Shown here: positions 1-26,684 of the stretch, piece after piece
How the letters are laid out: every line of letters starts with the position of its first letter
Position numbering within the stretch: the first letter of the stretch is position 1
Origin: Thermoplasmata archaeon
GTDB taxonomy: Archaea > Thermoplasmatota > Poseidoniia > Poseidoniales > Thalassarchaeaceae
Reading direction: 5' to 3'
DNA: 64,000 bases
Assembly (NCBI GenBank): GCA_002727675.1
Contig: PBXQ01000073.1
Location: forward strand, 31,272-95,271
Program-made: the position numbers and the translations under genes
The notes under the pieces: model-generated
The model's database searches: none
Told to the model about the DNA's origin: nothing
What the model saw: only the letters and a program-made list of their open reading frames with translations

Positions 1-3000
1 ACATTTGCAGCAGGTTGGGTTGCAGTGTCATTTAGAGACAAACCTTGGCTCTTGGTTCTAGTTAGTGGCGGTGCAATTGCTGGTGTAATTTTAGGTGCAT
101 TGTATGCTTTACAATATTTGGAAATTTACAATGGATGGGATGTACTAACCACTGGTGGTTATTATTTCTCAAAGAACAAGGTTTTCGGAACAATTGCTGA
201 AGCACAGGCTCCTAGCCGAGCTATGCTATTTGCCTCATTTGGTCCAATAGTTGCATTAGCTGCCCTTTTTGCAGGGGTTATAGCATTCTGGCAAGGGATT
301 AGAAATCGTAATGGTAGTCGTTTAGTTTTGGCAGTCTGGATTCTTGTTGCTGTTCTTATGGCTTGGAGAGCTGGAAGGTTCGTCTTCAATGCTACTCCAC
401 CCGTTGCGGTTATGGGTGCTTGGGCATTTGTGATCTTTTGGCAGAAAGTTGGAGGTACAGAATTTGGTAAAACATGGCGTAGAATGGGTATTGGTTCACC
501 TAAAGCAAGATTTTCTTCAACAACCAAGACTGCTAGAAAATACCCTGGCGTTGTAGCAGTTTTGATGATATTTATGTTAGTTGGCGCACAACATGCAACA
601 TATGGGATAGATTCAGGTATTCCTTCTGGTAATTCAAAAGCAAAGGACATAGATTCTAGTATTTACAATATTACACCTAGTATATTGAGGGCTGAAGATC
701 CACTCTTTGGCTGGTCTATTCTTGACTCAACTCCTTACAATCCACCAAGTAGTTGTAGAGGTTTGACTAAAGAATCTAGTTGTTGGTACATGGGTGCATT
801 TGGACCAGGGTTCAATAGTTTGTATTGGAATGAAGGTTATCAATGGCTTGAGGAACAAGATAAAGATGTCCCATTTGGTCAAAGACCAGCGTTCGTTTCA
901 TGGTGGGATTATGGATTCCAAGCTTTAGCCCAGGGGCAACACCCAACTGTAGCCGATAACTTCCAGTCGGGAATTCCCGCGGCAGGAAATATGTTATTGG
1001 CTCAAAATGATCAAGATTTACTTTCTTTGTACACTATGACAATTGCTGAAGGTGATTTGAGATACAACGACGGGCAATTTACTAATGATTTCAAACAGAT
1101 TTTGAGGCAACAATTTACTAATGCTCAGATAGATGAATTCCATTTGTTAAATACTCTTGGCGGGGATGAAGGTGTAAATGAATTACAGGCACGTTCTTTC
1201 AAAGTAACTCGTAATGCCGGTGATGTTTCTTTAGCAGAAGGGTATTTATTGGATTCGAATGGGATGCCAACTTCTAGTATTGTTTACAGAGTTTATCAAA
1301 GTAATGAACAAATTGGTATTGATTATAATTCAGAATTTGATGCAATCATGATGTTTAATCAAACCAAAGATAGGAATGATGATGTAAATACAGGTTCTGA
1401 TGGTTTCACACATCAAATAATTGGAAATTATTGGTACACTAAGGATATTGTAGAAAGTTTTGATGATGTTTCAACATCAATTCATAGACAAAATGCTCGT
1501 TTAGCATTAGGTCGTGCTTTCTTAACAACTGCTTTAGATATGGATGAATTAGTTGAATTATATCATGGGATTACTCATGATATTACATACACTGTGGCAA
1601 ACTCAGAAGGTAATCCAGGTGACCTGATTAACAGAAATCACGATATTCGCTATTTTGCAGTTGATAACAGATTATATCCAACAGGTGGTTCATACCAACA
1701 AAGCGGAGGAAATCCTACCGGAATTTTCTATGCACCTACAACATTATCTGGTCTAGATCCTGAAACATACATGAAAACTTGGTATGTTACTCAAAGAGGT
1801 TCTTCTAGTTATTATATTGATATGACACAAGAGGAATATGAGGAACAATTGGAAGCAGACTATTTAGCAAGTGAATCTCAAAGTACTGAAGAAATTATAC
1901 AAGCGGTTGATATTAGAATTGATCAAGAACCTGAATTCTTTGACACAATGGTCTCCCGAGCTTATGTTGGATATGGTAGTTCTCATCTTGGGTTGCCAGG
2001 TGACCCTTCGCAACCAGGTCAGCATTTTGATTTACGAGGGACAGTAAATTCGAGTTTACAGTATGCATTCCCTCTGCCTGGTGCTATGATGCCTAATTTC
2101 GTAATTGCAAATTGGTACAACCCCGATGCAACTAATGAAACTCCATGGTATGATGCAAATACAGGAGTTAAGATTCTGAAATATTATAGTGGTGCTACAT
2201 TAACTGGTGAAGTTACTCTTGGTAACTTTACTACTGTGCCAAAGGCTAGATTATTAATTGAAAGGGATGCTTACAGTGGTGAGGATATGTTTGATGAAGA
2301 TCCAAGAGAATATTGGATACCAATTGGTACTACTGATGCAGATGAAAATGGTCATTTTAGTTTCCGAGTTCCTGCAGGTCATATCCGTGTTACTGCATTT
2401 TCTGGCTTTGCAGAAGATCCAGAAGTTTTGCGAAATCAAGACCGTGATGCTATAGTTGCGGCACAACAAGATTTCCAGGAATGGCAGGAGTGGTTTGGAG
2501 ACATTTTGGGACAGTCAGATGGTGCTAGAGAAGTAAATCCAGTTACCAGTATCCTTGCAAACGTGAGTGGTGGTAAATTGCTAGGTGAAATACAATTCAC
2601 TGTTACAGGAGAAGAGGCCGACACAGATGGCGGAGCAGTCATTTCAAAATCAATTAATATTGAATCATCATCTGCAACAGGTGTTGTGTCTTGGGAAGGG
2701 CACTCATCATTTGATGGTCAAGCATTGAGTTCTCATGAATTGATTTTTACTGATATTTGGACAGAAGAAGAGTTGCCTCATATCTGGACTACTAATGGTA
2801 CTGTTGTTAGTGATGCTGAGCATCCCAGAGTATTCATTGGAGACGGCGAGGTTACTTTCTCAGGTGCAGGAACAATGGTTAGTAATGGTGAGGTATTAGT
2901 TTCAGACTTTACTGGTAACTATACTAGGACAATTGCAGATAACCATTCATTTACTGGTGAAGGTTTGTATTCTGGAATTGGAGAATTTGTAGGTACAATT

Positions 3001-6000
3001 ACTAGCAATGAGGCAATATCAACTTGTGTTAACAATTCAGTTCCCGAAGAGGAAGAAATTTGTACGATTCCAAACTCAAATCCTACGGCCTATCTTTTCT
3101 CAGGTTCATTTAATGGGGTAGGAAAAGTAACTGCTAATGGAACTGTCGAATATACTGCCACATTGTACCGTGAAACATTAGTAGGTAATGGAATATTTAT
3201 TGTTGACCAATCTGATGATTCATTAGATAGTTATGGGACAATAAATGGTTCAGGCACATTTAGTGGGGTGGGGACATTCTCGGGTGACATGGTTCAACCA
3301 GGTAGTTTCCATCTTGTTGATGCTCTCCCCGGTTCATATCGTGTATACATAGTATTACCAAATGGAAACATTACTCGTTTGAGCACACCTCTTGAAGTTG
3401 ATAGTTCACCTACCAGTGATGTTCAACTCAAATTACCGGCTTCTTGGATTGAGGGTGATTTGAAATGGTTTAGTGGGGATCCAATCTCTGATATGGCATT
3501 AGAATTAACAGAATTAAGTATTGATGAACCAGCCACACAACCTTGTACTGAGGTTTTGTTTGCACCTTGTATATTGTATACTGATGAGAATGGTTCTTTC
3601 GGATACGGACCAATACCTGATGGTACATATAATTTGAAAATGGATGCTGATGGTGATGGTTTCTACGAATGTGTCCCTTGGCAAACTCCCGCATCAACAA
3701 ATTTCTGTGATGGGCGCGCTGAAATAATTGCTACAATTGATCCAATGAATTTTACATTGATTCAAACTTCTTCCCCAGTGCCTTCTCATTATGATTTGGA
3801 GTTCACTCTAAAGCAAGATTTGGGTGGTGGTACTGTTGAACCAGTTTCTGATGTTGATGTATTTTTCCATAGTAATTTGTTAACTGATGGAGAGTATATT
3901 TCAGCAATATTTGATAATGATTCTAGTACCTATAAGATTGAATTACCAGAGGGTGAATGGGTTGTAAATGCTTCAGATGATAGTGGTTTGATGTTATGGG
4001 AAGAATTTGAATTACTTGATAATATGACTGGAATGGATTGGATTCTACGTGAGAGTGTTAATGTCACTGGACAAATATTAGTTCAAACAGGTAAATCTGA
4101 ATCGCCACAGGAGGGCGTGCCTAATTTGGAAGTCAAATTCCAATGGGGTGGCATCACCACATCAGTACAAACCAGTTCTGGTATGAATGCAGGTAATTTC
4201 TCTGTTTTACTTCCAGAGGGCGTTGCAGTAAACATGACGGCGCAATCTATTGCTAGTCAAATGTCCAATGGGACAAGCTTTATTGTTTCAGAATCTAATT
4301 CTCATATTATAATGAATATTGAATCAGGATTGCAATTAAATGGTGGGTTATATTTGTATGATAATATGACTGCATATTCACCCTATGTTCCTGGGTTCAT
4401 GCCATATCAATTACATGCACACGATGACGATAGAGATGTTCATTGGTTCTTTGATGTATCAGTTGAAGATGGTAGATATTCACCTAAATTACAATATGGT
4501 AATTGGACATTGTCAATAACCGATGAACGTCTAAATGTTGATCCTGTTCAGTTATTTGTTTCTGATGAAAATATTGAATTAATGTCTCACTTTGAATTGT
4601 TTGCTAATCCAGAAAATATTACTTTAAACATTACCGCATTCTTAGACCATTCAAGAGACGGAAATTCTTCTAACGGTACCTTGGTTGATATTGATTTCTC
4701 ATTAACAGCTATTTCAGGTGGTTCTGATTTGAATGTATCATCATCTGAAATGAATAATGGAAATGTTGAGGTGTCGCTTCACCCTGGTGTTTACAGTTTT
4801 ACAGTTGAAAACCAGGATGTATCTAACGGTACAGATTTTGGTACTTCTTTAATGAATACAGAATATGTATTAGAGTTAGGTCTTGATAATACTACAACAG
4901 AATTTGCTAATTTATCACTTGAACCTCTTTGGAAACTTGATGGAAATCTAGAAAACATGTCAGGTGGAGTAATTGAAAATGGTACATTGAAATTTGAAGA
5001 GATGGATACTGGAGACGCATTTGAAATCATTACAGATGAAAACGGCACAATCTCTGATTATGTCCCAGAGGGTCAGTGGTTAGTAATCTTCGAGCGAAAA
5101 CTGGTCGGTGCTGAATATGAAGAGTTGAGATATAATTTGACAGTGGATGAAAATTCCCAACGTTCCAACGTTACTTTTAGGACTTTAGAATCAGCTGAAA
5201 TTTCACTAAATATCAATATTAGTGATTCAGGTGACCCATTATCTGGTTTGTCAGCAACTGCTACAAGTGCTAATGGGCTTGGCGAAATCACTTTGCCATT
5301 GACGAATGATCAAGGTCATGTTTTAGCACATTTGTATCCTGGTGATTGGATTGTTTCCCTCAATATTACTCACAATATGGATCGCTGGGTACTTGAAGGC
5401 CAGAGTTTGCCAACAGCCTCAGCAGGTCAGAATATTTCTGAAAATTTCACTGTTGAACACCACGTTACTTTAGGTGGAAATCTATTTTGGGATTTAGATT
5501 CTGATGATCTGTATGATTTCAATGAAGGAGTTGAAGGTGCAAACGTCACAGTATCAGGCGGAGGTCTTTCAGAGCAGGTGAATTTGACAAGTTCTGAATT
5601 AGGAACTTGGTCACTATTTGTTCCATCAAATAATAACTATACTGTTGAGGCAACACAAATTGGTTTTGGTACAGTTTCAATTTTGGCCGAGGTATCTACT
5701 ACTTCTAATTCTACAGATATTGAATTAATTGCAGGCAATGTTTCAATTAATGGAACAATTGATTACATTCAAATGCAATTATGGGACGATTTCTCAGATG
5801 ATGTTGTTCTTACACTAATGCCTAAATCAGGAATTGAAAGAGATTCTCGCACCCCCACGAAGGTAATGGCGCTTGATGGTACATGGGATGGAGAGTGGGT
5901 GGCTGATGTTGAGCCGGGATCATGGGTTTTGTATGCATCAGTAGTTAGTGAAGGAATAGTTGGTATAGTTTCAGTGGAAGCAGATGTACATAATGGTACC

Positions 6001-7572
6001 ACGGTCAATATGACTATGGTTAAGGGCGGTACAATGAACATCGCTACAGAATGGGTTGATTTCACCGGAACACCTCATGATTTATCCGAAATCTCAGTCC
6101 CAGGGGCAGAAATAATTGGGAGTACTGAAATTATTGTGTCTCATGAAACAATGTCATGGAATGCAACTGTAGATTCAAATGGCGACCTCAGTATATTATT
6201 GCCTGCTGGTGATGTCAACTTTGAAGGACAATTTGAAACTACTGAACTAGGCATGGTTATGGATTATCGTGCTGGTTTATCCAGCGCAATTGCTTCTCAA
6301 CAGGAATCACCATCTGCTACTTTGAGGTTTAACAGAATACTTGATCATTCTATTAGTTTCGTAGTTTCTTCAGTGGTTGGTGCAAATTTGTCTGAAGATT
6401 CAAATAATAATGTAATAGCCTTATACCATAATGATACAGATTACGAAGTGATTGAATTCACAATTGAACTTGAATATGAGGGTAATGAAGGATATGACGA
6501 ATATACAATTGGCACTGTATTTGATTCAATAGATGTTGATCAATGGTCAATAGAGTTCTTTAATGGAACTGATGCTAATGGTACTGAATTATGGGTTGAA
6601 GAACTCCCTGCAAATCTAGGCTTAAATTCTAATTCATCTGTTACAGTTAGGATGAGGGTTGTAATAGCTAGCATTGCTGGAGCCCAAACGATTGACGATG
6701 GGCACAAGATTAGACTTAGATCAACTCATTCTACCGGTACTTTTAGTGAGTATGTTATTACAGTAAATATTCCTCAGACATTTTCTATTGAGATTATTTC
6801 TAGTCCAGAAAATACGATAGGTGTATTCCCTGGAGAAGAAGAAAAGGTAGAATTTATTATACAAAATACTGGGAATGGCCAAGACATGCTATCTTTCAAC
6901 ATTGACAAGACATGGTTGCCCGAGGGATGGAGTGCTACAGGACCAAGCGAATCTCCATGGGTGAGTGGTGAAGAGAGAGCATATTCATTCACAGTATTTG
7001 CTCCCGAAGGGGCTAATTCTGATACATTTACCTTAGTATTGAATATTAACAGTTCAGATGGCACATCATATGATCCAATTGAGATTGACGTAAAGAGTGC
7101 CAAACCAATACTAAATTTTGTTCAAGATGCTACTGGTACTTTTGATGATGGAAATGCTATTTCAGGAGAAAGTAACAAGATGATAGTTACTGTAGAAAAT
7201 AATGGACTTGTTGATGCACAAAATATTAGAGTAAATGTTAGTATAACAGATAGTAAAGGAAATCATGCTTACATTTTGTCTGATCCTCAAGAAATATCAT
7301 CAGGTAAAACAGCAGAATATATCATGTTTATCGATTTAGATGGAATTGGAATAGGCAAGCAAGAATTCACATTTACTTTGGAAAGTGAATTTGGACTTGA
7401 TTTAGATAGTGGGTCTGATATAGAGCCATATTCAACAATTATCCAAGTTTCTACTCCCCCTATTGATTCAGTTAATGTGTGGGTTCCTCTGATAATTATT
7501 GCAGTATTTATCTTTGGATTCTTTGGATTTAGAAGAATTAAGGAGTCTTTGTCAGCGCAGATGCCTTTCTGA
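1..7572 (+). CDS. aglB: Giant membrane glycoprotein whose N-terminal region is an AglB/STT3-type oligosaccharyltransferase core, followed by about 2200 aa of beta-rich extracellular repeats and a C-terminal TM anchor. It is 5'-partial: the frame is open from nt 1, and the ORF track starts it at an in-frame GTG at 25.
   Basis: Hydrophobic TM helices lie in the first ~300 aa. The WWDYGFQ motif at nt 901-921 (STT3/AglB WWDYG catalytic motif) is followed by TVADNFQSG, resembling the STT3 TLVDNNTWN region. The downstream region is rich in N-x-S/T sequons and CARDB-like xNxGNxx segments. The C-terminal hydrophobic segment VWVPLIIIAVFIFGFFGF is followed by RRIK. The uninterrupted 7.5 kb ORF cannot be chance at this AT content. 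Confidence 0.6.
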   Translation, partial: TFAAGWVAVSFRDKPWLLVLVSGGAIAGVILGALYALQYLEIYNGWDVLTTGGYYFSKNKVFGTIAEAQAPSRAMLFASFGPIVALAALFAGVIAFWQGIRNRNGSRLVLAVWILVAVLMAWRAGRFVFNATPPVAVMGAWAFVIFWQKVGGTEFGKTWRRMGIGSPKARFSSTTKTARKYPGVVAVLMIFMLVGAQHATYGIDSGIPSGNSKAKDIDSSIYNITPSILRAEDPLFGWSILDSTPYNPPSSCRGLTKESSCWYMGAFGPGFNSLYWNEGYQWLEEQDKDVPFGQRPAFVSWWDYGFQALAQGQHPTVADNFQSGIPAAGNMLLAQNDQDLLSLYTMTIAEGDLRYNDGQFTNDFKQILRQQFTNAQIDEFHLLNTLGGDEGVNELQARSFKVTRNAGDVSLAEGYLLDSNGMPTSSIVYRVYQSNEQIGIDYNSEFDAIMMFNQTKDRNDDVNTGSDGFTHQIIGNYWYTKDIVESFDDVSTSIHRQNARLALGRAFLTTALDMDELVELYHGITHDITYTVANSEGNPGDLINRNHDIRYFAVDNRLYPTGGSYQQSGGNPTGIFYAPTTLSGLDPETYMKTWYVTQRGSSSYYIDMTQEEYEEQLEADYLASESQSTEEIIQAVDIRIDQEPEFFDTMVSRAYVGYGSSHLGLPGDPSQPGQHFDLRGTVNSSLQYAFPLPGAMMPNFVIANWYNPDATNETPWYDANTGVKILKYYSGATLTGEVTLGNFTTVPKARLLIERDAYSGEDMFDEDPREYWIPIGTTDADENGHFSFRVPAGHIRVTAFSGFAEDPEVLRNQDRDAIVAAQQDFQEWQEWFGDILGQSDGAREVNPVTSILANVSGGKLLGEIQFTVTGEEADTDGGAVISKSINIESSSATGVVSWEGHSSFDGQALSSHELIFTDIWTEEELPHIWTTNGTVVSDAEHPRVFIGDGEVTFSGAGTMVSNGEVLVSDFTGNYTRTIADNHSFTGEGLYSGIGEFVGTITSNEAISTCVNNSVPEEEEICTIPNSNPTAYLFSGSFNGVGKVTANGTVEYTATLYRETLVGNGIFIVDQSDDSLDSYGTINGSGTFSGVGTFSGDMVQPGSFHLVDALPGSYRVYIVLPNGNITRLSTPLEVDSSPTSDVQLKLPASWIEGDLKWFSGDPISDMALELTELSIDEPATQPCTEVLFAPCILYTDENGSFGYGPIPDGTYNLKMDADGDGFYECVPWQTPASTNFCDGRAEIIATIDPMNFTLIQTSSPVPSHYDLEFTLKQDLGGGTVEPVSDVDVFFHSNLLTDGEYISAIFDNDSSTYKIELPEGEWVVNASDDSGLMLWEEFELLDNMTGMDWILRESVNVTGQILVQTGKSESPQEGVPNLEVKFQWGGITTSVQTSSGMNAGNFSVLLPEGVAVNMTAQSIASQMSNGTSFIVSESNSHIIMNIESGLQLNGGLYLYDNMTAYSPYVPGFMPYQLHAHDDDRDVHWFFDVSVEDGRYSPKLQYGNWTLSITDERLNVDPVQLFVSDENIELMSHFELFANPENITLNITAFLDHSRDGNSSNGTLVDIDFSLTAISGGSDLNVSSSEMNNGNVEVSLHPGVYSFTVENQDVSNGTDFGTSLMNTEYVLELGLDNTTTEFANLSLEPLWKLDGNLENMSGGVIENGTLKFEEMDTGDAFEIITDENGTISDYVPEGQWLVIFERKLVGAEYEELRYNLTVDENSQRSNVTFRTLESAEISLNINISDSGDPLSGLSATATSANGLGEITLPLTNDQGHVLAHLYPGDWIVSLNITHNMDRWVLEGQSLPTASAGQNISENFTVEHHVTLGGNLFWDLDSDDLYDFNEGVEGANVTVSGGGLSEQVNLTSSELGTWSLFVPSNNNYTVEATQIGFGTVSILAEVSTTSNSTDIELIAGNVSINGTIDYIQMQLWDDFSDDVVLTLMPKSGIERDSRTPTKVMALDGTWDGEWVADVEPGSWVLYASVVSEGIVGIVSVEADVHNGTTVNMTMVKGGTMNIATEWVDFTGTPHDLSEISVPGAEIIGSTEIIVSHETMSWNATVDSNGDLSILLPAGDVNFEGQFETTELGMVMDYRAGLSSAIASQQESPSATLRFNRILDHSISFVVSSVVGANLSEDSNNNVIALYHNDTDYEVIEFTIELEYEGNEGYDEYTIGTVFDSIDVDQWSIEFFNGTDANGTELWVEELPANLGLNSNSSVTVRMRVVIASIAGAQTIDDGHKIRLRSTHSTGTFSEYVITVNIPQTFSIEIISSPENTIGVFPGEEEKVEFIIQNTGNGQDMLSFNIDKTWLPEGWSATGPSESPWVSGEERAYSFTVFAPEGANSDTFTLVLNINSSDGTSYDPIEIDVKSAKPILNFVQDATGTFDDGNAISGESNKMIVTVENNGLVDAQNIRVNVSITDSKGNHAYILSDPQEISSGKTAEYIMFIDLDGIGIGKQEFTFTLESEFGLDLDSGSDIEPYSTIIQVSTPPIDSVNVWVPLIIIAVFIFGFFGFRRIKESLSAQMPF

Positions 7573-7648: not shown

Positions 7649-8914
7649 TTGGTGATTCCGGGTCTAGAGGGTGTAGAATTGCTCCCAGAGCCTGAAGATC
7701 CGCGTATGTTGAGTACAATAGACCCGGGTGCAACAGGTTATCCTGCTGAAGCATACGGGATGGATCCAGAAATGGACCCTCAAGCTTGGAAGGGCGCTGA
7801 AGCCATTAATCCAGTTAGGCTAAGGAATAGGTTGCCTTGGGGTGGATGGATATTAGTTTGCTTCATAATTGTAGGAATAATAACATATAGTTCGTTGGTA
7901 GACTATATTGAAGAATTTTTACCTGAATCAGAATGGGCTTATGAAGAATCAGGTATTAGGGATTTGAATGAAGCAGGGTTCAGTGGCAAAGGCGTCAGAG
8001 TTTGCATTGTTGATACCGGCATAGACGTCACACACCCGGATTTGGTTAATACTAATTTAGTCGGTTTCAAAGATTTCGTCCACGATACTCAAGGAAATCC
8101 TCATGATAATGATGTTACCAAATCACATGGCACTATGATGGCTGGAATAATTGTAGCTAATGGTTCATTTATTGGGGCAGCACCTAACATTGAATTGATT
8201 GTGGCTGCTGCTCTTGGTTCTGATGGTAGTTCTGGTTCTGAAGTGTCTGTATCTGAAGCAATAGATTGGTGTTGGATAGAAATGGGTGCAGAAATAATTA
8301 GTTTAAGTTTAGGTGGTAAAACAGATTTAGTTTCCACATATGGTGGTAGTACAGAATCATCAGTTAAGGATGCATTAGATAATGGTGTTTTTGTCGTTGC
8401 GGCAGCGGGTAATCATGGTGGCGCTGGACAAGATTATCCTGACGTTACTATCCCTGCCAATGTTGATGGCGTAATTTCCGTAGGTGCAGCGCATAGAAAT
8501 AATACAGTATGGCAGTTGTCTAGTGCAGGTTCTCCTACTAATTCCTCTGGGGGGATTAGAGAATGGCCAAATCAGAAGCCAGAGGTAATTGCTCCTGGTG
8601 TTGGCATTTACTCGACTTTTGTTTCTGAAAGGACTGGGGCAACTTGGTCCATAAGTGATGGTACTAGTGACGCGACAGTATATGTCACTGCATCTTTGGC
8701 TTTGATATTAGAAAGGTATCAAGGTAATCCTGCTTTGATGCCCACTCATCAAGGGGATAGATCTCCAATTAATCTTGTTAAATCTGCTTTAGCTGAATCG
8801 TGTGAGCCAGGGACATTTCAAAATCAGGGCGAACACCATTTACGTTATGGGTATGGATCATTGAATGCCAAGGATTGGTCTGATGCGGTGGGCGTTAGAA
8901 TAAGTAATGCGTAA
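7649..8914 (+). CDS. Membrane-anchored subtilisin-like serine protease (peptidase S8). The ORF-track start is TTG at 7649; the first in-frame ATG is about 7706.
   Basis: S8 catalytic triad motifs: VCIVDTGID (Asp), HGTMMAGII (His), GTSDATVYV (Ser). An N-terminal cytoplasmic stretch is followed by a TM helix GGWILVCFIIVGIITYSSLV acting as a signal anchor. Confidence 0.8.
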   Translation: MVIPGLEGVELLPEPEDPRMLSTIDPGATGYPAEAYGMDPEMDPQAWKGAEAINPVRLRNRLPWGGWILVCFIIVGIITYSSLVDYIEEFLPESEWAYEESGIRDLNEAGFSGKGVRVCIVDTGIDVTHPDLVNTNLVGFKDFVHDTQGNPHDNDVTKSHGTMMAGIIVANGSFIGAAPNIELIVAAALGSDGSSGSEVSVSEAIDWCWIEMGAEIISLSLGGKTDLVSTYGGSTESSVKDALDNGVFVVAAAGNHGGAGQDYPDVTIPANVDGVISVGAAHRNNTVWQLSSAGSPTNSSGGIREWPNQKPEVIAPGVGIYSTFVSERTGATWSISDGTSDATVYVTASLALILERYQGNPALMPTHQGDRSPINLVKSALAESCEPGTFQNQGEHHLRYGYGSLNAKDWSDAVGVRISNA

Positions 8915-9067
8915 TATAGAATGATATTATTTTTAATATTTGATACATTGTTATTTTATGGGCTAGAAAAATATTGATATTATTGGCTATTTATGATACT
9001 TTTTCAATTGGAAAAAGGCGTTTCCTTATAACCTAAGCCGGAAGTAGATGATTTAGAAGGTGTTGAG
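8915..9067 (+). promoter_or_regulatory. AT-rich intergenic region with an oligo-T terminator-like tract for the protease gene and a TATA-like or SD region for the beta-helix giant gene.
   Basis: tattatttttaatattt T-tract just after stop 8914. ggctatttatgatac TATA-like element. aaggtg SD 8 nt before ATG 9068. Confidence 0.3.
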
Positions 9068-12000
9068 ATGATGAAAATGAATGAACGCATGAGCAGTTTT
9101 TTACTTGTCACATTATTTGTGATGAGTTCCATGTCTGTTCTTGTTACTTTTGCCCCAGAGGTTGATGCTGCGAATAATACTACTAGTGGTGTGATTACTG
9201 GGACTGAGACTTGGCAAGGGAGTCATAGTTTGACTGGAGATGTAGAAATTGCGCCAGGAGCTAAATTAATCATTCAGCCTGGTTCAACCATTACATTTCA
9301 AAATGGTACTTTCCTAAATGTAAAAGGCAATTTATGTGCTGGTGATACATCTTGCGGTGCTAGTGGGATGGCAAGTAATTCTAGTAGAATTAAATTTATT
9401 TGGGCAACTCCTGCTAATCAATCAGCCCAGGGTCGCTGCTATTCATTGATTAACCCATCTAGTGGTCAACCATTGTACAACCCTGATCCTTCTTGTTTTG
9501 AAGGCGTATTAGTTCAAGATACAATTGATATCGCTCAAACAAAATTTAACCATGTTACAATTGAGAATGCATATGGGATGCCTCGTTATGTTTCTGATAT
9601 ACAAGAAATTCGTTGGGGTTCATTTATTTTAGATGGTGCTAGCCCATTAGTAACTGAAATTAATTTTAACAATATTAATACCTCTAGTGCATTGATTTTG
9701 GATTTGGCATCTCCTACATTTAATGGAGGTACTTTCCAAGTAGGTTCTGAAGAGGCAATAGAGGGATTAGCCGGTAACGCCGTTCAAGTTTGGGGTGCGG
9801 GTACTCCAAATGACCCTGTTTTGTTCCAAAGTCCCATCTTTACAGGTACTGATAAGGGATGTTCATCCCAGGATAATGGGCGTCACGTAATTTGGGTACA
9901 GTCATCATTTACAGATATTGATCATGGCGTTGTTGCTAGCGGTGATTATGGTTTTAGATATACAGATTCTGCAGGTAATTTATCTTATAACACCATATCT
10001 ACAGATTGTAATGGCATAGACATAAATGGTCGCCGTTCAATGTTATCAACTGATTATCAATTAGAGGTTTTTGGTAACGCAATTACCACTGCCGACAATT
10101 CACCGGTAACTGCTTATGATGCCGCTTATGCACTTATATCATCTAATACGATGTCTGGCGCAGAACAGGCTTCAGGAATTCAGGTGGTGTCAGATCCTTA
10201 TACTGGTCCTACAGAGGTACGAATTACCAATAATGACATAGGGCCAATTACTGGTTATAATGGAATTTGGGGTGTAGGTTCATTTGACATGATGGTGGAT
10301 AACAACACAATTCATGAAATTAATCGTGAGCCGATTATTGTTGGTGAATACCATTACACAGACTCTGGATGGCAGGTGTCTAGTCCGCATCCAGCAAGGG
10401 CTACAATTGTTGATAATGTAATTACTAATGTCACAGGAACTTGTGATTCAGACAAGGTTTGGGGTGAATCATTTGCTTGCCCTGCATTCCATGTTTATCG
10501 TTCTAGTGCAACAATAAAGAGAAATAATGTTTCTGAAATTGCTGGTGATGCTATTCGTGCAGTTGGGTCATTAATTGATGTTCAAGATAATGATTTTTCA
10601 GTAGCTGGCGAAGGAGCTAAAGTTGTTGATCACAAACATGAATATACATCTTTAGCATTCTTTTCAGGAAATAATTGGATTGATGTTGCAGAAATTGTAT
10701 ATAATGTTACTAAGAGTTCTGTAACCGTACAATCAGAGACAATCCCGTCACTATCTGGTGGTGGCGCTATGCCAATCCAATTGGTTTGGGATAGAGGGCA
10801 AGCATATGAGTACAATAATTGGGACAACAAAGTATTGTTGCCTCCAACAACTTCTATGCCTCCTTTAGATTTCCCATTATCACTTCAAGCTGCAAATAAT
10901 TCAACTGTTTTCACCTATGCTAATATGTCAGGTCTTTCACTATCTAAAATTCAGATTGCCCCTGGCTCTCCAAGTATTTGGCAAGTTCAGGTACGTGAGG
11001 CGTCACTTGTTCGCATTAGAGCAACAGTAGGGGGAGTTAGAGTTCCTGATGCTACGATAATGATTGAGGATGCTCACGGTAATGATATTTATAACATGCA
11101 AACTGACTCTCAAGGTTTTGCTCCTTGGGTTGCTCTTCCATCTGATTTCCATTTAGATATCAGAGGGAATGGAAATAACCCTGATGGTTTTGCAGATGAT
11201 GAGGGCGAAAATTCCTGTTCTGATGGTATCGATAATGATGGTGATTTGTTATATGATTCTAATGATCCTGATTGCAATCAAGGTAGTTCTGTTCGTGAAC
11301 TTTCGATGTACTATGTGACTGCTTATAAATTTGGTAAAGGTTATCATAGGTCAACATTTAATTTGACTGGGATTAATTATGAGGATACCCTTTCAATGTC
11401 TAATCTTGCCCCTTCGTTATTGGTTACTCAAGAGGATGGCCATTCATTCAAGAGAACAATAAATTTCACAGGTTATGCTTGGGATGGTAATATTGGTACT
11501 GGGGTATTTTCCAGTGACGAACTTGCACGTTGGTCTCAACAAGGGGCAGTTCAAAGAATTGAAGTCAAAACACCAGACTCTAGTTCTTGGCAGGATTTTA
11601 GGTATGCAGTTGATGATAGTGGTTCAAATGGAGAAGTAACTTACAATAACAGGCCATTTAAAAATTGGTATTTCTCTTACAATATGGAGGATCAACCAGA
11701 GGGTGACTATACATTTGATTTCAGAGCTTATGATGGGGTTGAATACAGCCCAATTGTTACTAGGACAATAAAATTGAACGTTAACCCACCTAGTATTAAT
11801 GTCATTACCCCCGTAAATAATTCTGTTCATTCTACTGGTACGGTGCTATTTACTGGTGGTGCAATGGATGGATATAATGGGGCTATCAATGACATACAAG
11901 AGATTCATTTCCAGATGTCTAGTCCATCTTGGTCTACAACGACTACCACGATTTCCCGTTCTGTAGACAGTCAAGGAAATCCGATTGGAAGTCTAACTTC

Positions 12001-13447
12001 TTGGTCTTGGGAATGGAATTTCTCAGGTATGCCAAAGAATCGTGAGGTGTGGACTTTTACTATTTGGGCTTCCGATTCGGGATATTGTACTGAAACGGTG
12101 GATATCTGTACGCCTGTAACTTTGATGTTGGATATAGATAATGCTAATGCTGCTCCTGTAATTTCACTATTAGCGCCATATAACGATGAAGTAATTACAG
12201 CAGCAGAAGACACCATGATTGCAGGAATTGCACGTGATACCGATGGTGAAGTGAAAAGAGTGGAAATAAAGATATTAGATCCTCAAAATGGGATGATGGA
12301 GTTGCCAAATTCACCTCCTTCGGTTAATAATATAGCTCCTAATGGTCAATGGAGCACAACTTGGGATACGAGATATCTAATCCATGATTTCCATTATTTG
12401 ATTAGCGCACGTTCTTATGATGGTAAATCAGGGGGTTATAGCGCTTGGGATCAAGTAGAGATTATAATTCACAATCCGCCTGATTCAGATAACCGTGCAC
12501 CTATTTTCAATAGTTCTGGTTGGGTAAATGAAGTGATAATTTTCTGTGAAGAGAATAGTGAAGCTTTGGAAAGGTGTGGGAACGGAGGTTCGATTGAAGT
12601 TTCGCCTTATTTCAGTGACCCCGATGGAGACTCACTTGATTTCGATGTTTGGGACGATCCAGATGTAATTGCCAATAGTGATTTTGAGCACGATCAAAGG
12701 TGTTATGATTTAATTTCAGTAGATATTTATGGTAAGGCAACTTATGATCCTGTTTCAATGTCTTTCCTAAATGCTGACATGGACACTTGGTCATGCGAGG
12801 GAATGAAATTCATTGCCAAAGATGGTTCTAGTACTGCTTATAGTATGAATGTAGATTTTATTGTTAGGGCAGTATCATTTACCGCTGAAAGAACCGATGG
12901 AATATCTGAATTAGGTGATGATGAAATAGTAATTTTCTCTGGTCAGGGGAGGCCTGGGATTGAGGTTGTAGCGCGCTCAAGTAATACTGGACTTAGACTG
13001 AATAATACAATTGTTGACGATAATGGTACATGGACAATGGCCATAAAAGTCAAAAATTTGGAGAATGGATTGAATAATATTAATTTTGTTTATGATAAAA
13101 AAGATACTGGCAAGTCAATATCTGTTCAAGTTGGCTCTGTTGATGATGATAGCGGTCTTGGATGGATTTTATGGGCTTTAATTTCAGTAATATCATTAGT
13201 AGTACTTGCCGGGGTATTCTTCTTCTTCTTTGTTGAATTTGAAGAAGAGCCCGATGTGGATTTACCTCAGGGGAGTCAGGTGGTTGAAGAAGACCCATAT
13301 GCATGGGGTAAAACAAATCAGCAACAAGCTACGGCTTCAGCGCCGGCGACCGCCCAACAGGTCGCTCAGCCTGCAGCTGCGCCTCAACCAAGTTATCCTG
13401 GCTGGAAGTGGGATCCAGAAAGTAATCAGTGGATACCTGATCAATGA
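9068..13447 (+). CDS. Giant (1459 aa) secreted surface protein with right-handed parallel beta-helix repeats, Ca-binding-like Asp-rich segments, a C-terminal TM anchor and a Q/A/P/W-rich cytoplasmic tail.
   Basis: Signal peptide MMKMNERMSSFLLVTLFVMSSMSVLVTFAPEVDA. Pectate-lyase-like beta-helix repeats, e.g. NNDIGPITGYNGIWGVGSFDMMVDNNTIHEIN. DGIDNDGDLLYDSNDPDC segment. C-terminal TM WILWALISVISLVVLAGVFFFFFV, then an acidic/Pro tail ending YPGWKWDPESNQWIPDQ. An SD-like aaggtg lies 8 nt upstream of ATG 9068. Confidence 0.7.
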   Translation: MMKMNERMSSFLLVTLFVMSSMSVLVTFAPEVDAANNTTSGVITGTETWQGSHSLTGDVEIAPGAKLIIQPGSTITFQNGTFLNVKGNLCAGDTSCGASGMASNSSRIKFIWATPANQSAQGRCYSLINPSSGQPLYNPDPSCFEGVLVQDTIDIAQTKFNHVTIENAYGMPRYVSDIQEIRWGSFILDGASPLVTEINFNNINTSSALILDLASPTFNGGTFQVGSEEAIEGLAGNAVQVWGAGTPNDPVLFQSPIFTGTDKGCSSQDNGRHVIWVQSSFTDIDHGVVASGDYGFRYTDSAGNLSYNTISTDCNGIDINGRRSMLSTDYQLEVFGNAITTADNSPVTAYDAAYALISSNTMSGAEQASGIQVVSDPYTGPTEVRITNNDIGPITGYNGIWGVGSFDMMVDNNTIHEINREPIIVGEYHYTDSGWQVSSPHPARATIVDNVITNVTGTCDSDKVWGESFACPAFHVYRSSATIKRNNVSEIAGDAIRAVGSLIDVQDNDFSVAGEGAKVVDHKHEYTSLAFFSGNNWIDVAEIVYNVTKSSVTVQSETIPSLSGGGAMPIQLVWDRGQAYEYNNWDNKVLLPPTTSMPPLDFPLSLQAANNSTVFTYANMSGLSLSKIQIAPGSPSIWQVQVREASLVRIRATVGGVRVPDATIMIEDAHGNDIYNMQTDSQGFAPWVALPSDFHLDIRGNGNNPDGFADDEGENSCSDGIDNDGDLLYDSNDPDCNQGSSVRELSMYYVTAYKFGKGYHRSTFNLTGINYEDTLSMSNLAPSLLVTQEDGHSFKRTINFTGYAWDGNIGTGVFSSDELARWSQQGAVQRIEVKTPDSSSWQDFRYAVDDSGSNGEVTYNNRPFKNWYFSYNMEDQPEGDYTFDFRAYDGVEYSPIVTRTIKLNVNPPSINVITPVNNSVHSTGTVLFTGGAMDGYNGAINDIQEIHFQMSSPSWSTTTTTISRSVDSQGNPIGSLTSWSWEWNFSGMPKNREVWTFTIWASDSGYCTETVDICTPVTLMLDIDNANAAPVISLLAPYNDEVITAAEDTMIAGIARDTDGEVKRVEIKILDPQNGMMELPNSPPSVNNIAPNGQWSTTWDTRYLIHDFHYLISARSYDGKSGGYSAWDQVEIIIHNPPDSDNRAPIFNSSGWVNEVIIFCEENSEALERCGNGGSIEVSPYFSDPDGDSLDFDVWDDPDVIANSDFEHDQRCYDLISVDIYGKATYDPVSMSFLNADMDTWSCEGMKFIAKDGSSTAYSMNVDFIVRAVSFTAERTDGISELGDDEIVIFSGQGRPGIEVVARSSNTGLRLNNTIVDDNGTWTMAIKVKNLENGLNNINFVYDKKDTGKSISVQVGSVDDDSGLGWILWALISVISLVVLAGVFFFFFVEFEEEPDVDLPQGSQVVEEDPYAWGKTNQQQATASAPATAQQVAQPAAAPQPSYPGWKWDPESNQWIPDQ

Positions 13448-13508
13448 TTAAATCATTCAACCGTAACTATTGAATGCTAGTGGGGAAAACATAGTAGGTG
13501 GTGGAATA

Positions 13509-16028: not shown

Positions 16029-16504
16029 AATCCTGGTTGATTGGTTGTGATTACAACTTTATTATCTTGCATTACTACCCATATTTGTTCTATTCCTGCT
16101 AGTTCTACTTCTCCTGAATGAAATGTATTTCCTGTCGAAGATATGTCTCTAGTTGCTTTTAGGTTAGCACTATGATCTTGCATTATTAGTCCATCATCTG
16201 TCAACAACATTCTGAATTCGAGATTTACTGCATTTGAAAGTAGTAAATCGACTGGTTCAGCGTAGGTGATGTTTCCATCTAATCTGCTAGCAACATCGGC
16301 CCTTTCAATTGCAGCAGCGACAGAGTCTAGGTTTTCTTCCATAGCCTGTTCCATCCAAACATCTCCTCTAGCATCTTGCATTTCCCATGTCCAAACACTG
16401 AAGAATGACATAAAAGATAGCCCAAGTAGGAATGTAAGTACATATCCAATTTCAGTAGCAGCGGCCAACGTATCTCGTTGTAATTTACGATTGATTTTCA
16501 TCAT
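16025..16504 (-). CDS. Small (159 aa) class-III-signal-peptide, type IV pilin-like protein, a putative minor pilin. Start ATGA overlaps the stop of the upstream gene.
   Basis: N-terminus MMKINRKLQRDTLAAATEIGYVLTFLLGLSFMSFFSVWTW: a basic region is followed by a single hydrophobic helix. There is a 4-nt overlap (16501-16504) with the preceding gene, and the stop overlaps the convergent STAND gene stop. Confidence 0.5.
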   Translation of the reverse strand: MMKINRKLQRDTLAAATEIGYVLTFLLGLSFMSFFSVWTWEMQDARGDVWMEQAMEENLDSVAAAIERADVASRLDGNITYAEPVDLLLSNAVNLEFRMLLTDDGLIMQDHSANLKATRDISSTGNTFHSGEVELAGIEQIWVVMQDNKVVITTNQPGF

Positions 16505-20691: not shown

Positions 20692-20847
20692 TCCTTCAAT
20701 ACACCCCCTTATTCTGCAGTTGTTATTGCTGTTTCAATACCATTTTGTATAGGCCGATTAGTATGTTGACGTATGAACCATGCTCCATCAGCATCATAAG
20801 GCAACCCGTAGGGTTGTAACATAGCAGCCGATGCTGTGGGTGAGCCA

Positions 20848-26580: not shown

Positions 26581-26590
26581 TGATGTTCCA

Positions 26591-26626
26591 CTATTTTTGG
26601 CTCCGGAGTTCTGGCCGTAGGCCAGA
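26591..26626 (+). terminator. Putative transcription terminator downstream of the giant TSP3-repeat gene: an oligo-T tract followed by two short palindromes.
   Basis: ctatttttgg, then ctccggag (self-complementary), then tctggccgtaggccaga (7-bp stem, 3-nt loop). All are read directly from the sequence. Archaeal terminators are typically oligo-T tracts. Confidence 0.35.
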
Positions 26627-26684
26627 TAATCTAAATTGGGGAGAGTTGAAAGGTTAGATGCCTTCGTGAAAGGGTGGGGAGCGC

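What the first reader, a model, noticed from the sequence alone, without database searches (positions are those of the whole stretch)
1..7572. AglB/STT3 oligosaccharyltransferase core fused in-frame to a ~2200 aa glyco-adhesin-like ectodomain with its own C-terminal anchor
The N-terminal part carries the polytopic TM region and the STT3/AglB catalytic motif WWDYGFQ, followed by TVADNFQSG, which resembles the eukaryotic TLVDNNTWN region. Instead of ending after the ~300-400 aa soluble C-terminal domain seen in characterised AglB proteins, the same uninterrupted ORF continues for over 6 kb. This extension is beta-rich with CARDB/Ig-like repeats, carries a very high density of N-x-S/T sequons, and ends in a second TM segment plus a basic stop-transfer. 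An OST fused to what looks like its own heavily glycosylatable giant substrate or adhesin has, to my knowledge, not been described. It could glycosylate itself in cis, or tether the OST to the S-layer or cell-surface matrix. The gene is 5'-truncated by the window edge.
Basis: partly seen in the sequence, partly recalled or inferred. Interest (0 to 1): 0.7.

Follow-up and report, generated by a model that had tools for sequence, protein, structure and literature searches.

The report
Giant doubly anchored archaeal oligosaccharyltransferase
This is the 3' three-quarters of a 3,195-residue version of AglB, the enzyme that attaches sugars to archaeal surface proteins; it carries a ~1,700-residue chain of beta-sandwich domains anchored back into the membrane, an architecture shared by Marine Group II archaea and related Thermoplasmatota that I could not find discussed in any paper.

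Summary
Frame 1 is open from base 1 to the stop at 7570-7572. The catalytic STT3/AglB motifs are present and invariant across relatives. A beta-rich ectodomain follows and ends in one TM helix plus a basic tail.

It is not an assembly chimera. An independent Tara contig gives the full 3,195-aa gene. More than 110 full-length protein clusters and at least 567 loci in species-representative genomes share the architecture, including single-cell genomes and both Poseidoniales families.

- The canonical AglB soluble domain reaches about residue 1480 of the full protein, so the true add-on is about 1,700 aa, not 2,200.
- The add-on is a fixed-length, colinearly conserved chain with no BLAST-detectable repeats, not a repeat-variable adhesin.
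- The full gene also has an extra N-terminal module of about 350 aa with 8-10 TM helices.
- Homologous 2,000-2,800-aa AglBs with the same layout occur in other Thermoplasmatota, including cultured Methanomassiliicoccus luminyensis. Some end in PGF-CTERM-type sorting signals.

Best reading: an active AglB whose peripheral beta domains expanded into a glycosylated surface arm. The arm's function is inferred. I found no paper describing it. Verdict: new variant of a known kind, moderate interest.

The parts
1..609 (+). 3' part of the STT3/AglB membrane domain (P0001 residues 673-875). It holds about the last five or six TM helices, at roughly window aa 16-34, 76-94, 107-125, 127-145 and 178-203. 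The gene continues upstream of the window for 672 codons.
   Evidence: TIGR04154 matches window aa 25-339. Pfam STT3 matches P0001 residues 411-809. Hydropathy scans. Offset of 672 residues between the window and P0001.
187..219 (+). EL5 catalytic motif GTIAEAQAPSR (TIxE)
   Evidence: Near-invariant in the 120-sequence family alignment. Position.
898..978 (+). SWWDYGFQAL followed by PTVADNFQSGIP: the acceptor-binding catalytic motif of STT3/AglB/PglB
   Evidence: Invariant across the family. Aligned to AglB-S 3vu0/3vgp, AfAglB-L residues 545-576 and human STT3B.
1009..1581 (+). Helical plus beta insertion domain between WWDYG and the rest of the soluble core (P0001 residues 1009-1199). It is less conserved and only partly shared with non-Poseidoniales relatives.
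   Evidence: Model A has helices at 130-189 and 283-320 and strands at 193-273, with pLDDT about 85. Conservation of 0.55-0.58. Low coverage by second-tier proteins.
1582..2424 (+). Second half of the conserved AglB soluble core (P0001 residues 1200-1480). It holds the clade signature DIRYFAVDNRLYP...TGIFYAPTTLSGLD...FFDTMVSRAYVGYG...PLPGAMM..F.IANWY. The first transthyretin/CarboxypepD_reg-like beta-sandwich lies at nt 2167-2400.
2425..3294 (+). Poseidoniales-specific block (P0001 residues 1481-1770): a helical linker, then a Gly-rich region of very long beta strands with two conserved Cys. Conserved sequons at N1526, N1683 and N1754.
   Evidence: No second-tier protein covers profile positions 1500-1700, and only 13 of 69 hits reach 1700-1800. 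Secondary structure of model A residues 600-890. Sequon conservation.
3295..7440 (+). Distal chain of roughly a dozen or more beta-sandwich modules (P0001 residues 1771-3152). Includes an invariant DADGDG loop (nt 3640-3672), Pfam CarboxypepD_reg (nt 5521-5691) and CARDB (nt 7150-7320).
7477..7530 (+). C-terminal transmembrane anchor VWVPLIIIAVFIFGFFGF
   Evidence: Hydropathy 2.36. Helix 1144-1163 in model B. Present in all full-length family members and in nearly all second-tier giants listed.
7531..7572 (+). Short basic cytoplasmic tail RRIKESLSAQMPF ending in an invariant terminal Phe, then the stop codon
   Evidence: The last two residues are PF in 97 and AF in 14 of 112 full-length members. 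No match to any NCBIfam sorting-signal model.
7649..8914 (+). Conserved downstream neighbour: S8 subtilase with an N-terminal signal-anchor TM helix (aa 62-85). It lies on the same strand, 76 nt after the stop.
   Evidence: Pfam Peptidase_S8 at E=4e-38. Hydropathy. Found downstream of the giant gene in 63 of 80 Poseidoniales loci; most of the rest are too short to reach that far.
9068..13447 (+). Conserved downstream neighbour: a 1,459-aa surface protein with a signal peptide, a Big_7 domain, a C-terminal TM helix (about aa 1366-1390) and a cytoplasmic tail of about 70 aa
   Evidence: Pfam Big_7. Sequence and hydropathy. Found in 58 of 80 loci.

Best explanation
The ORF is the 3' 79% of the aglB gene of a Marine Group IIb (Thalassarchaeaceae) archaeon. 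The full protein (3,195 aa) is an active, dolichol-linked-oligosaccharide:protein N-oligosaccharyltransferase of the STT3/AglB/PglB family.

Its layout, from N- to C-terminus:
1. A lineage-specific module of about 350 aa with 8-10 TM helices.
2. The canonical 13-TM STT3 domain with intact catalytic motifs.
3. An enlarged AglB soluble core that contains WWDYG and reaches about residue 1480.
4. About 1,700 aa of beta-sandwich modules (transthyretin/CnaB-like and CARDB-like).
5. A single TM helix that returns the chain to the membrane, then a short basic tail ending in Phe.

Because both ends are membrane-embedded, the arm must form a loop or hairpin on the outer face of the cell. It is probably N-glycosylated at conserved sequons. 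I infer that it is a structural or scaffolding surface element that evolved by expansion of AglB's own peripheral beta units: a built-in stalk, spacer or platform near the glycosylation site, not a separable adhesin.

Shown: the identity as AglB, the intact motifs, the fixed architecture, its phylum-wide homology and the sequon conservation. Inferred: enzymatic activity, topology, glycosylation and the function of the arm.
For: AglB identity:
- Pfam STT3 scores above its cutoff on P0001.
- The family profile hits A. fulgidus AglB-L 3waj/5gmy at E=6e-11. AfAglB residue 6 aligns to profile position 354, GGNDPWY aligns to GGSDPWY, and NDHH aligns to ADHD.
- TIxE, WWDYG and the GRF arginine region are invariant or near-invariant across 120 sequences.

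One real gene:
- The independent contig L001 gives the full ORF, with 3 substitutions in 2,523 aa.
- More than 110 full-length clusters exist.
- At least 567 loci in species-representative genomes encode a relative. The 80 best are all Poseidoniales, from both families, and include SAGs AG-404-A19 and AG-313-L18.
- Synteny CarS-PurD-aglB-S8-Big7 is conserved.
- STT3 is listed in about 95% of MGII genomes, and aglB transcripts are reported for an MGIIb MAG.

A fixed arm rather than repeats:
- No self-BLAST hits.
- Narrow length range.
- Few gaps, and the proximal block is as conserved as the TM core.

An old fusion:
- The Poseidoniales HMM aligns colinearly with 2,000-2,800-aa AglBs of Thermoplasmata and Methanomassiliicoccales over the core, the proximal block and the distal chain. 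These proteins likewise have one C-terminal TM helix and a basic tail.
- M. luminyensis has a 2,173-aa version.
- AglBs of 1,100-1,400 aa share the block up to about residue 1480.

Surface display:
- The models are all-beta with confident domains.
- Fold matches are to cell-surface sandwich domains and to the S-layer stalk protein SlaB.
- Sequons are enriched at z=+7.3, with 25 positions conserved in at least 50% of members and 11 in at least 80%.
- In about 10% of the non-Poseidoniales giants the C-terminal anchor is a PGF-CTERM/Loki-CTERM/Heimdall-CTERM sorting signal scoring above the curated cutoffs, the kind carried by archaeal surface glycoproteins.
Against: - No experiment exists for any member. 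Activity, glycosylation and topology are predictions.
- The DK/MI-type motif that completes the Ser/Thr pocket in characterised AglB/PglB could not be identified with confidence. The segment likely to hold it (DIRYFAVDNRLYP...GIFYAPT) is modelled at low confidence without the membrane domain.
- I could not check whether Poseidoniales also carry a second, ordinary-length AglB that does the housekeeping work.
- Inter-domain geometry in the models is unreliable (pTM 0.41-0.47), so 'loop or hairpin' follows only from the two membrane anchors.
- Nothing in the data says what the arm binds or does. Fold matches are generic sandwich domains.
- The conserved membrane-anchored subtilase next door leaves open the possibility that the arm is cleaved off.
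Confidence: 0.6

Rival explanations
1. The arm is an adhesin. The OST is fused to a fibre that binds particles, algal polysaccharides or other cells, in keeping with the proposed particle-associated lifestyle of some MGII archaea.
Against: Both ends are membrane-anchored, so there is no free tip. No lectin, CBM, vWA or other ligand-binding domain was detected. There are no tandem near-identical repeats, and length is nearly constant, unlike typical adhesins. The same colinear chain occurs in sediment, gut and planktonic lineages with very different lifestyles. The fold matches are to generic stalk domains, not to binding domains.
Confidence: 0.15
2. The gene encodes a precursor. After insertion, the arm is cut from the OST, for example by the conserved neighbouring membrane-anchored S8 subtilase. 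This would yield an ordinary-size AglB plus a separate C-terminally anchored surface glycoprotein, possibly an S-layer-like component.
For: An S8 subtilase with a signal anchor lies directly downstream on the same strand in 63 of 80 Poseidoniales loci. An S8 gene also lies 2 kb away in a complete Methanomassiliicoccales MAG. A helical linker follows the canonical AglB part at about P0001 residues 1480-1525. Some relatives end in PGF-CTERM-type signals typical of S-layer glycoproteins.
Against: The S8 gene is absent within 10 kb in another giant-AglB locus. No conserved cleavage motif was identified. The proximal part of the add-on is as conserved as the catalytic core, which suggests a working unit. 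Gene fusion maintained across two classes would be unnecessary for two independent products.
Confidence: 0.1
3. The arm is an envelope strut whose C-terminal helix sits in a second, outer layer or membrane rather than in the cytoplasmic membrane. It would tie the OST to that layer and set the width of the intervening space.
For: A review lists M. luminyensis, which has a 2,173-aa homologue, among archaea with double membranes (PMC6098224). The arm has a fixed length and confident rigid-looking sandwich modules. There is fold similarity to the S-layer stalk SlaB and to NOMO, a rod of Ig-like domains.
Against: The tail after the last helix is strongly basic in essentially all members. That is the signature of a cytoplasmic-side stop-transfer in the cell membrane. 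No envelope ultrastructure is known for MGII. No insertion route into an outer membrane is known.
Confidence: 0.1
4. The long ORF is an artefact: a chimeric assembly or a missed frameshift joining two genes.
For: None found. The only reason to consider it is the unusual length and the metagenomic origin of the sequence.
Against: The same ORF appears in an independent assembly at 99.9% identity. More than 110 full-length clusters come from ENA, JGI, NCBI, Logan and Tara sources. It is present in single-amplified genomes and on contigs up to 1.68 Mb. GC content and skew are uniform across the junction.
Confidence: 0.01

Closest known systems
Archaeoglobus fulgidus AglB-L (PDB 3WAJ/5GMY/7E9S, 875 aa) and other characterised archaeal AglBs
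   Different: The window's protein is 3.6 times longer. It has about 350 extra N-terminal residues with 8-10 TM helices, an insertion of about 190 aa after WWDYG, DHD instead of DHH in the second motif, about 1,700 additional residues of sandwich modules, and a second membrane anchor at the C-terminus. The DK motif was not identified.
Giant AglBs of Thermoplasmata and Methanomassiliicoccales (2,000-2,800 aa; e.g. M. luminyensis P0442; MAG proteins named 'STT3 domain-containing' or 'carboxypeptidase regulatory-like domain-containing')
   Same: Homologous and largely colinear over the core, proximal block and distal chain. One C-terminal TM helix with a basic tail. Sequon-rich ectodomain.
   Different: They lack the N-terminal module and the block at residues 1480-1770, and they are 400-1,100 aa shorter. 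They lack the terminal Phe. About 10% carry PGF-CTERM-type sorting signals, which the Poseidoniales proteins do not. None has been studied experimentally as far as I could find.
Eukaryotic OST complex (STT3 plus ribophorins, OST48 and small membrane subunits)
   Same: The same catalytic subunit family. The catalytic subunit is surrounded by additional TM helices and by lumenal or extracellular beta-rich domains. This comparison rests on established knowledge of structures such as 6S7O, plus the STT3A/B sequence hits.
NOMO (BOS complex subunit): a rod of transthyretin/Ig-like domains with a C-terminal TM anchor
   Different: NOMO has no enzymatic domain and is anchored at one end only. The similarity is at the level of a common domain fold.
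Archaeal S-layer stalk and surface glycoproteins (Sulfolobus SlaB; PGF-CTERM-anchored S-layer glycoproteins of Euryarchaeota)
   Different: Those proteins are substrates of AglB, not fused to it. No lattice-forming domain is recognisable here. The window's protein has no PGF motif.

Membership tests
STT3/AglB/PglB oligosaccharyltransferases (GT-C fold, Pfam PF02516) | Polytopic N-terminal membrane domain matching the STT3 model | tested here: met
   PF02516 scores 48.4 bits against a cutoff of 24.5 on P0001 residues 411-809. The profile matches AfAglB-L residues 6-282 at E=6e-11. Only the last 203 residues of this domain lie in the window.
STT3/AglB/PglB oligosaccharyltransferases (GT-C fold, Pfam PF02516) | First acidic motif in external loop 1 (the D of the GxDxxY/DxD type) | tested here: met
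   GGSDPWY at P0001 residue ~410 is conserved in at least 90% of the family and aligns to AfAglB GGNDPWY. It lies upstream of the window.
STT3/AglB/PglB oligosaccharyltransferases (GT-C fold, Pfam PF02516) | Second acidic motif (DxD, ExD or DxH) | tested here: met
   LADHDAF at P0001 residue ~527 is conserved and aligns to AfAglB NDHH. It lies upstream of the window.
STT3/AglB/PglB oligosaccharyltransferases (GT-C fold, Pfam PF02516) | TIxE/SVSE motif in external loop 5 | tested here: met
   GTIAEAQAPSR at window nt 187-219 is near-invariant.
STT3/AglB/PglB oligosaccharyltransferases (GT-C fold, Pfam PF02516) | WWDYG motif in the soluble domain | tested here: met
   SWWDYGFQAL at window nt 898-927 is invariant. 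It aligns to 3vu0, 3vgp, 3waj and STT3B.
STT3/AglB/PglB oligosaccharyltransferases (GT-C fold, Pfam PF02516) | DK or MI motif that forms the +2 Ser/Thr pocket with WWDYG | tested here: inconclusive
   No DxxK or MxxI pattern could be assigned. The candidate region RYFAVDNRLYP...NTGIFYAP is a strongly conserved clade signature, but it is modelled at pLDDT below 50 without the membrane domain.
STT3/AglB/PglB oligosaccharyltransferases (GT-C fold, Pfam PF02516) | Transfer of lipid-linked oligosaccharide to Asn in N-x-S/T | not testable with these tools
   This needs an enzyme assay or genetics.
NCBIfam TIGR04154 'oligosaccharyl transferase, archaeosortase A system-associated' | Score at or above the curated cutoff (450 bits) | tested here: not met
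   61.1 bits on the window fragment. The tail has no PGF-CTERM match. This is homology to the subfamily, not membership.
Repeat-type surface adhesins (MSCRAMM/SdrD-like, Ca-stabilised repeat adhesins) | Tandem array of similar repeat units, usually variable in number between strains | tested here: not met
   No self-BLAST hits in the 2,195-aa ectodomain. Family lengths are 3,140-3,300 aa with few alignment gaps. Ca_tandemer scores only E=0.23.
Repeat-type surface adhesins (MSCRAMM/SdrD-like, Ca-stabilised repeat adhesins) | A recognisable ligand-binding domain at the distal end | tested here: not met
Archaeosortase substrates (PGF-CTERM and related sorting domains) | PGF-type motif, then a TM helix, then a basic cluster at the extreme C-terminus, matching the sorting-domain model | tested here: not met
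   The window protein's tail matches no sorting-domain model. In contrast, relatives P0313, P0271, P0163 and P0147 pass the PGF_CTERM, Loki-CTERM or Heimdall-CTERM cutoffs.

The most novel reading that the evidence does not exclude
The giant AglB is a single-chain 'OST machine' that doubles as an envelope organiser. The extra TM module and the ~1,700-aa arm would take the place of the accessory subunits of eukaryotic OST. The arm, fixed in length and anchored at its far end, would act as a strut or ruler that couples N-glycosylation to the assembly or spacing of the outer cell layer (an S-layer, a glycocalyx, or a second membrane as reported for M. luminyensis) in S-layer-poor Thermoplasmatota, including the most abundant planktonic archaea of the surface ocean.
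Probability: 0.12. Interest if true: 0.8.

Novelty: new variant of a known kind. Interest (0 to 1): 0.55.

Why it matters
AglB is treated as a roughly 600-1,000-residue single-subunit enzyme; this size range is from my own knowledge of the field, not from a tool result. Here, an entire order of globally abundant uncultured archaea, and related lineages in a second class of the same phylum, keep a version two to four times larger. It has a second membrane anchor and, in Poseidoniales, an extra membrane module.

If the arm has a structural or scaffolding role, it would be a new way of coupling protein glycosylation to cell-envelope architecture. It would also say something about the unknown cell surface of Marine Group II.

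A cultured relative, Methanomassiliicoccus luminyensis, carries a 2,173-aa homologue, so the question can be tested experimentally. The PGF-CTERM-type tails on some members raise a further question: is a polytopic enzyme processed by an archaeosortase?

Tried and rejected
- **Chimeric assembly or frameshift:** rejected.
- **Internal repeats in the ectodomain:** none by self-BLASTP.
- **Paralogy between the ectodomain and the neighbouring giant ORFs in the window:** no BLASTP hits.
- **N-terminal module as a duplication of the STT3 membrane domain:** hhalign probability 0.3%. The module has no Pfam match at E≤1, and no solved-structure hit covers profile positions 1-350.
- **A shared C-terminal 'PF' tail in other ORFs of the window,** which would point to a general sorting signal: none found.
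- **An archaeosortase signal on the window protein:** none found.
- **Pfam on five other large ORFs of the window (four with signal-peptide-like N-termini):** no hits.
- **Literature:** nine full-text searches combined AglB, STT3 or oligosaccharyltransferase with MGII, Poseidoniales, Thermoplasmatota, Methanomassiliicoccales, giant or Ig-like. None found a paper describing a giant AglB. The library lacks most subscription journals, so absence is not proven.
- **A second, ordinary AglB in Poseidoniales genomes:** could not be tested, because the tools return at most 10 kb around a gene and the hit lists are saturated by the giant family.
Full report
**1. What is in the sequence.**

Frame 1 of the + strand is open from base 1 to a stop at 7570-7572, giving 2,523 codons. 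The ORF runs off the 5' edge of the window. GC content and GC skew are uniform along it.

The first ~340 residues match the archaeal STT3 model TIGR04154 at E=6.7e-17. The score of 61 bits is far below the subfamily cutoff of 450. The stretch around SWWDYGFQAL...PTVADNFQSGIP aligns to the solved C-terminal domains of AglB-S (3vu0, 3vgp) and to human STT3B.

Pfam finds a CarboxypepD_reg domain above its cutoff at window aa 1841-1897, and a CARDB domain at its cutoff at aa 2384-2440. The last 31 residues are a hydrophobic helix followed by RRIKESLSAQMPF.

**2. The full gene, and why it is not an artefact.**

A protein search returned P0001 (3,195 aa), encoded on an independent Tara Oceans contig. 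The window's protein is its residues 673-3195, with three substitutions.

More than 110 further clusters of 3,140-3,300 aa cover about 100% of the query at 36-73% identity. All carry PF02516 (STT3), and most also carry PF13620.

A scan of one genome per GTDB species found at least 567 loci that encode a relative. The best 80 are all Poseidoniales. They come from both families (Thalassarchaeaceae and Poseidoniaceae) and include the single-amplified genomes AG-404-A19 and AG-313-L18.

Gene order is conserved: CarS - PurD - giant STT3 - S8 subtilase - ~1,450-aa Big_7 protein. It is seen in essentially every locus long enough to show it. A chimeric join or frameshift is excluded.

**3. Anatomy of the full protein (P0001 numbering; window residue = P0001 residue minus 672).**

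- **Residues 1-~365:** an extra membrane module with 8-10 predicted TM helices. A K/R-rich loop joins it to STT3 TM1. It has no Pfam match, and no solved-structure hit covers that part of the family profile. It is not a duplicate of the STT3 membrane domain. The family profile aligns residue 6 of A. fulgidus AglB-L to position 354, so this module lies upstream of the canonical AglB start.
- **Residues ~366-875:** the STT3 membrane domain. Pfam STT3 scores 48.4 bits against a cutoff of 24.5. It contains GGSDPWY, LADHDAF and GTIxEAQAPSR, each conserved in at least 90% of 120 sequences.
- **Residues 972-998:** the invariant SWWDYGFQAL...PTVADNFQSGIP motif.
- **Residues ~1009-1199:** a helical/beta insertion that is less conserved.
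- **Residues ~1481-1770:** a block with little or no counterpart in non-Poseidoniales relatives. It is a helical linker followed by a Gly-rich region of very long strands.
- **Residues ~1771-3152:** a chain of sandwich modules modelled with mean pLDDT 87. From module size I estimate about 16-18 sandwich-size modules over the whole add-on. This is my estimate from the secondary structure.
- **Residues 3165-3182:** the TM helix, followed by a short basic tail. The last residue is Phe in 111 of 112 full-length members: PF in 97 and AF in 14.

**4. What the arm looks like.**

The ectodomain has no BLAST-detectable internal repeats and no similarity to the other giant ORFs of the window. Together with the narrow length range, this argues for a defined multi-domain structure and against an expandable repeat adhesin.

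**5. Sequons.**

The ectodomain has 56 N-x-S/T sequons against 24.8±4.3 expected from shuffles (z=+7.3). This is the highest value among 12 ORFs tested in the window. One other secreted giant reaches z=+5.0, three more ORFs with signal-peptide-like N-termini reach 1.2-2.5, and the rest, including three without one (a STAND NTPase and two others), lie between -2.1 and +0.9.

Across 112 full-length relatives, 25 alignment columns hold a sequon in at least 50% of sequences and 11 columns in at least 80%. N1526, N1754 and N2230 are at 99-100%. At 36-40% overall identity, this positional conservation supports real glycosylation of the arm. Whether the same molecule does it in cis cannot be said.

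**6. The architecture is older and wider than MGII.**

An exhaustive search of 50%-identity cluster representatives found 400 relatives. After about 15 Poseidoniales-type representatives come about 60 proteins of 2,000-2,800 aa. In these:
- WWDYG sits at residues ~520-820, the normal AglB position.
- There are about 7-20 predicted TM segments upstream.
- In nearly all there is exactly one TM helix at the extreme C-terminus, with a basic tail.

Pfam shows STT3 plus several CarboxypepD_reg, SdrD_B, CARDB and NOMO-like domains. The sources name them 'STT3 domain-containing', 'carboxypeptidase regulatory-like domain-containing' or 'glycosyltransferase family 39' proteins of Thermoplasmata, Methanomassiliicoccales or Thermoplasmatota MAGs.

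The Poseidoniales HMM aligns with them colinearly over the core, the proximal block and the distal chain. For example, positions 1771-3132 align to P0194 residues 1318-2746 at E=1e-40. The fusion therefore predates the split of the classes Poseidoniia and Thermoplasmata.

Cultured Methanomassiliicoccus luminyensis has a 2,173-aa member with DHD, TIDE, WWDYG and one C-terminal TM helix.

**7. The C-terminal anchor.**

In 25-29 of 251 non-Poseidoniales giants, the last helix is preceded by PGF(E/G/S/D). Their tails pass the curated cutoffs of archaeosortase-type sorting models:
- PGF_CTERM: 26.5 bits against 24.5.
- Loki-CTERM: 23.3-25.6 bits against 19.9.
- Heimdall-CTERM: 25.0 bits against 24.

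Such signals mark archaeal surface glycoproteins. Their presence on some family members supports the view that the far end of the arm is handled like the anchor of a surface protein. The window protein and the M. luminyensis protein match no such model.

**8. Mechanism.**

Shown:
- A complete set of STT3/AglB catalytic motifs under strong purifying selection.
- A fixed, colinearly conserved ectodomain.
- Two membrane anchors flanking that ectodomain.
- Conserved sequons.

Inferred:
- The protein is an active N-oligosaccharyltransferase.
- The arm lies outside the cell as a loop or hairpin.
- It is N-glycosylated.
- It serves as a structural or scaffolding element that grew out of AglB's own peripheral beta units.

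Circumstantial support for a core, expressed gene comes from two papers. STT3 is listed in about 95% of MGII genomes in a pangenome table (PMC6336850 supplement). An aglB transcript is enriched when MGIIb genus O1 is active (PMC9723583).

The rivals are an adhesin, a precursor cleaved by the neighbouring subtilase, and an envelope strut reaching a second layer. None is excluded, and each is given with its test in the Rival explanations section.

**9. Relation to what is known.**

The protein is a member of the STT3/AglB family by every sequence feature I could test, except the DK/MI motif, which I could not assign. It is not a member of TIGR04154, of repeat adhesin families, or of archaeosortase substrates.

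Nine full-text searches found no paper that mentions a giant AglB or discusses STT3/AglB size in MGII or Thermoplasmatota. The library omits most subscription journals, so this is absence of evidence only. The proteins themselves are in public databases under generic names.

**10. Verdict.**

This is a new variant of a known enzyme kind, widespread and apparently undescribed. Interest is moderate (0.55). The arm's function is unknown, but it can be tested in a cultured relative.

Noticed in passing
window 7649-13447 (+); loci L002-L081: The S8 subtilase (signal-anchor TM at aa 62-85) and the 1,459-aa surface protein (signal peptide, Big_7 domain, C-terminal TM helix) directly downstream of aglB are conserved in that order across Poseidoniales: 63 and 58 of 80 loci respectively. 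They are on the same strand with short gaps, so they may form an operon of three cell-surface proteins. In the Damashek et al. supplement, aglB is gene 305 and an unannotated gene 307 is also enriched, which would fit this order.
   Followed up: partly
window 7531-7569; family alignment C-termini: The cytoplasmic tail ends in an invariant Phe: ...PF in 97 and ...AF in 14 of 112 full-length Poseidoniales proteins. No other ORF in the window has this ending, and non-Poseidoniales giant AglBs lack it. It co-occurs with the extra N-terminal membrane module. Its function is unexplained.
   Followed up: partly
P0271, P0163, P0313, P0147 and about 25 other non-Poseidoniales giant AglBs (C-terminal 50 aa): These polytopic OSTs end in PGF-CTERM/Loki-CTERM/Heimdall-CTERM-type sorting signals that pass the NCBIfam cutoffs. 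This implies possible archaeosortase processing of an enzyme, which is unusual.
   Followed up: partly
window 13470-16028 (+): An 852-aa STAND-type NTPase with an N-terminal HTH, AAA_16/AAA_22 domains and many TPR repeats sits after the conserved cluster. It has no counterpart at that position in any of the 80 related loci, so it is probably a strain-variable insertion.
   Followed up: partly
window 16025-19757 (-): Three consecutive ORFs of 159, 741 and 344 aa have short charged N-termini followed by a hydrophobic helix, e.g. ...ENAVSEILGVTMLLAMVIVVIG. This resembles archaeal type IV pilin-like (class III) signal peptides. The third has a weak DUF7289 hit. They may form a pilus or surface-structure gene set.
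   Followed up: no
window 20836-32201 (+); 38066-40276 (-); 48941-51238 (-): Several further large ORFs of 1,914, 1,838, 736 and 765 aa have signal-peptide-like N-termini and no Pfam match at all. The 1,914-aa ORF is also strongly sequon-enriched (z=+5.0). The window is rich in uncharacterised surface proteins.
   Followed up: partly
L083 1-6512 (upstream of the giant AglB P0145 in a Thermoplasmata MAG): A gene call of 8,356 residues with no Pfam hit on record lies just upstream of the giant AglB, followed by a 1,077-aa protein rich in Ig-like domains. This is another cluster of giant surface proteins next to a giant AglB.
   Followed up: no
P0162, P0194 and similar second-tier proteins: Some non-Poseidoniales giant AglBs have WWDYG at residues ~790-820 and up to about 20 predicted TM segments. 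They have an insertion of about 280 aa inside the STT3 membrane domain (between profile positions ~810 and ~877). Extra membrane modules therefore appear to have been added independently at different places.
   Followed up: no
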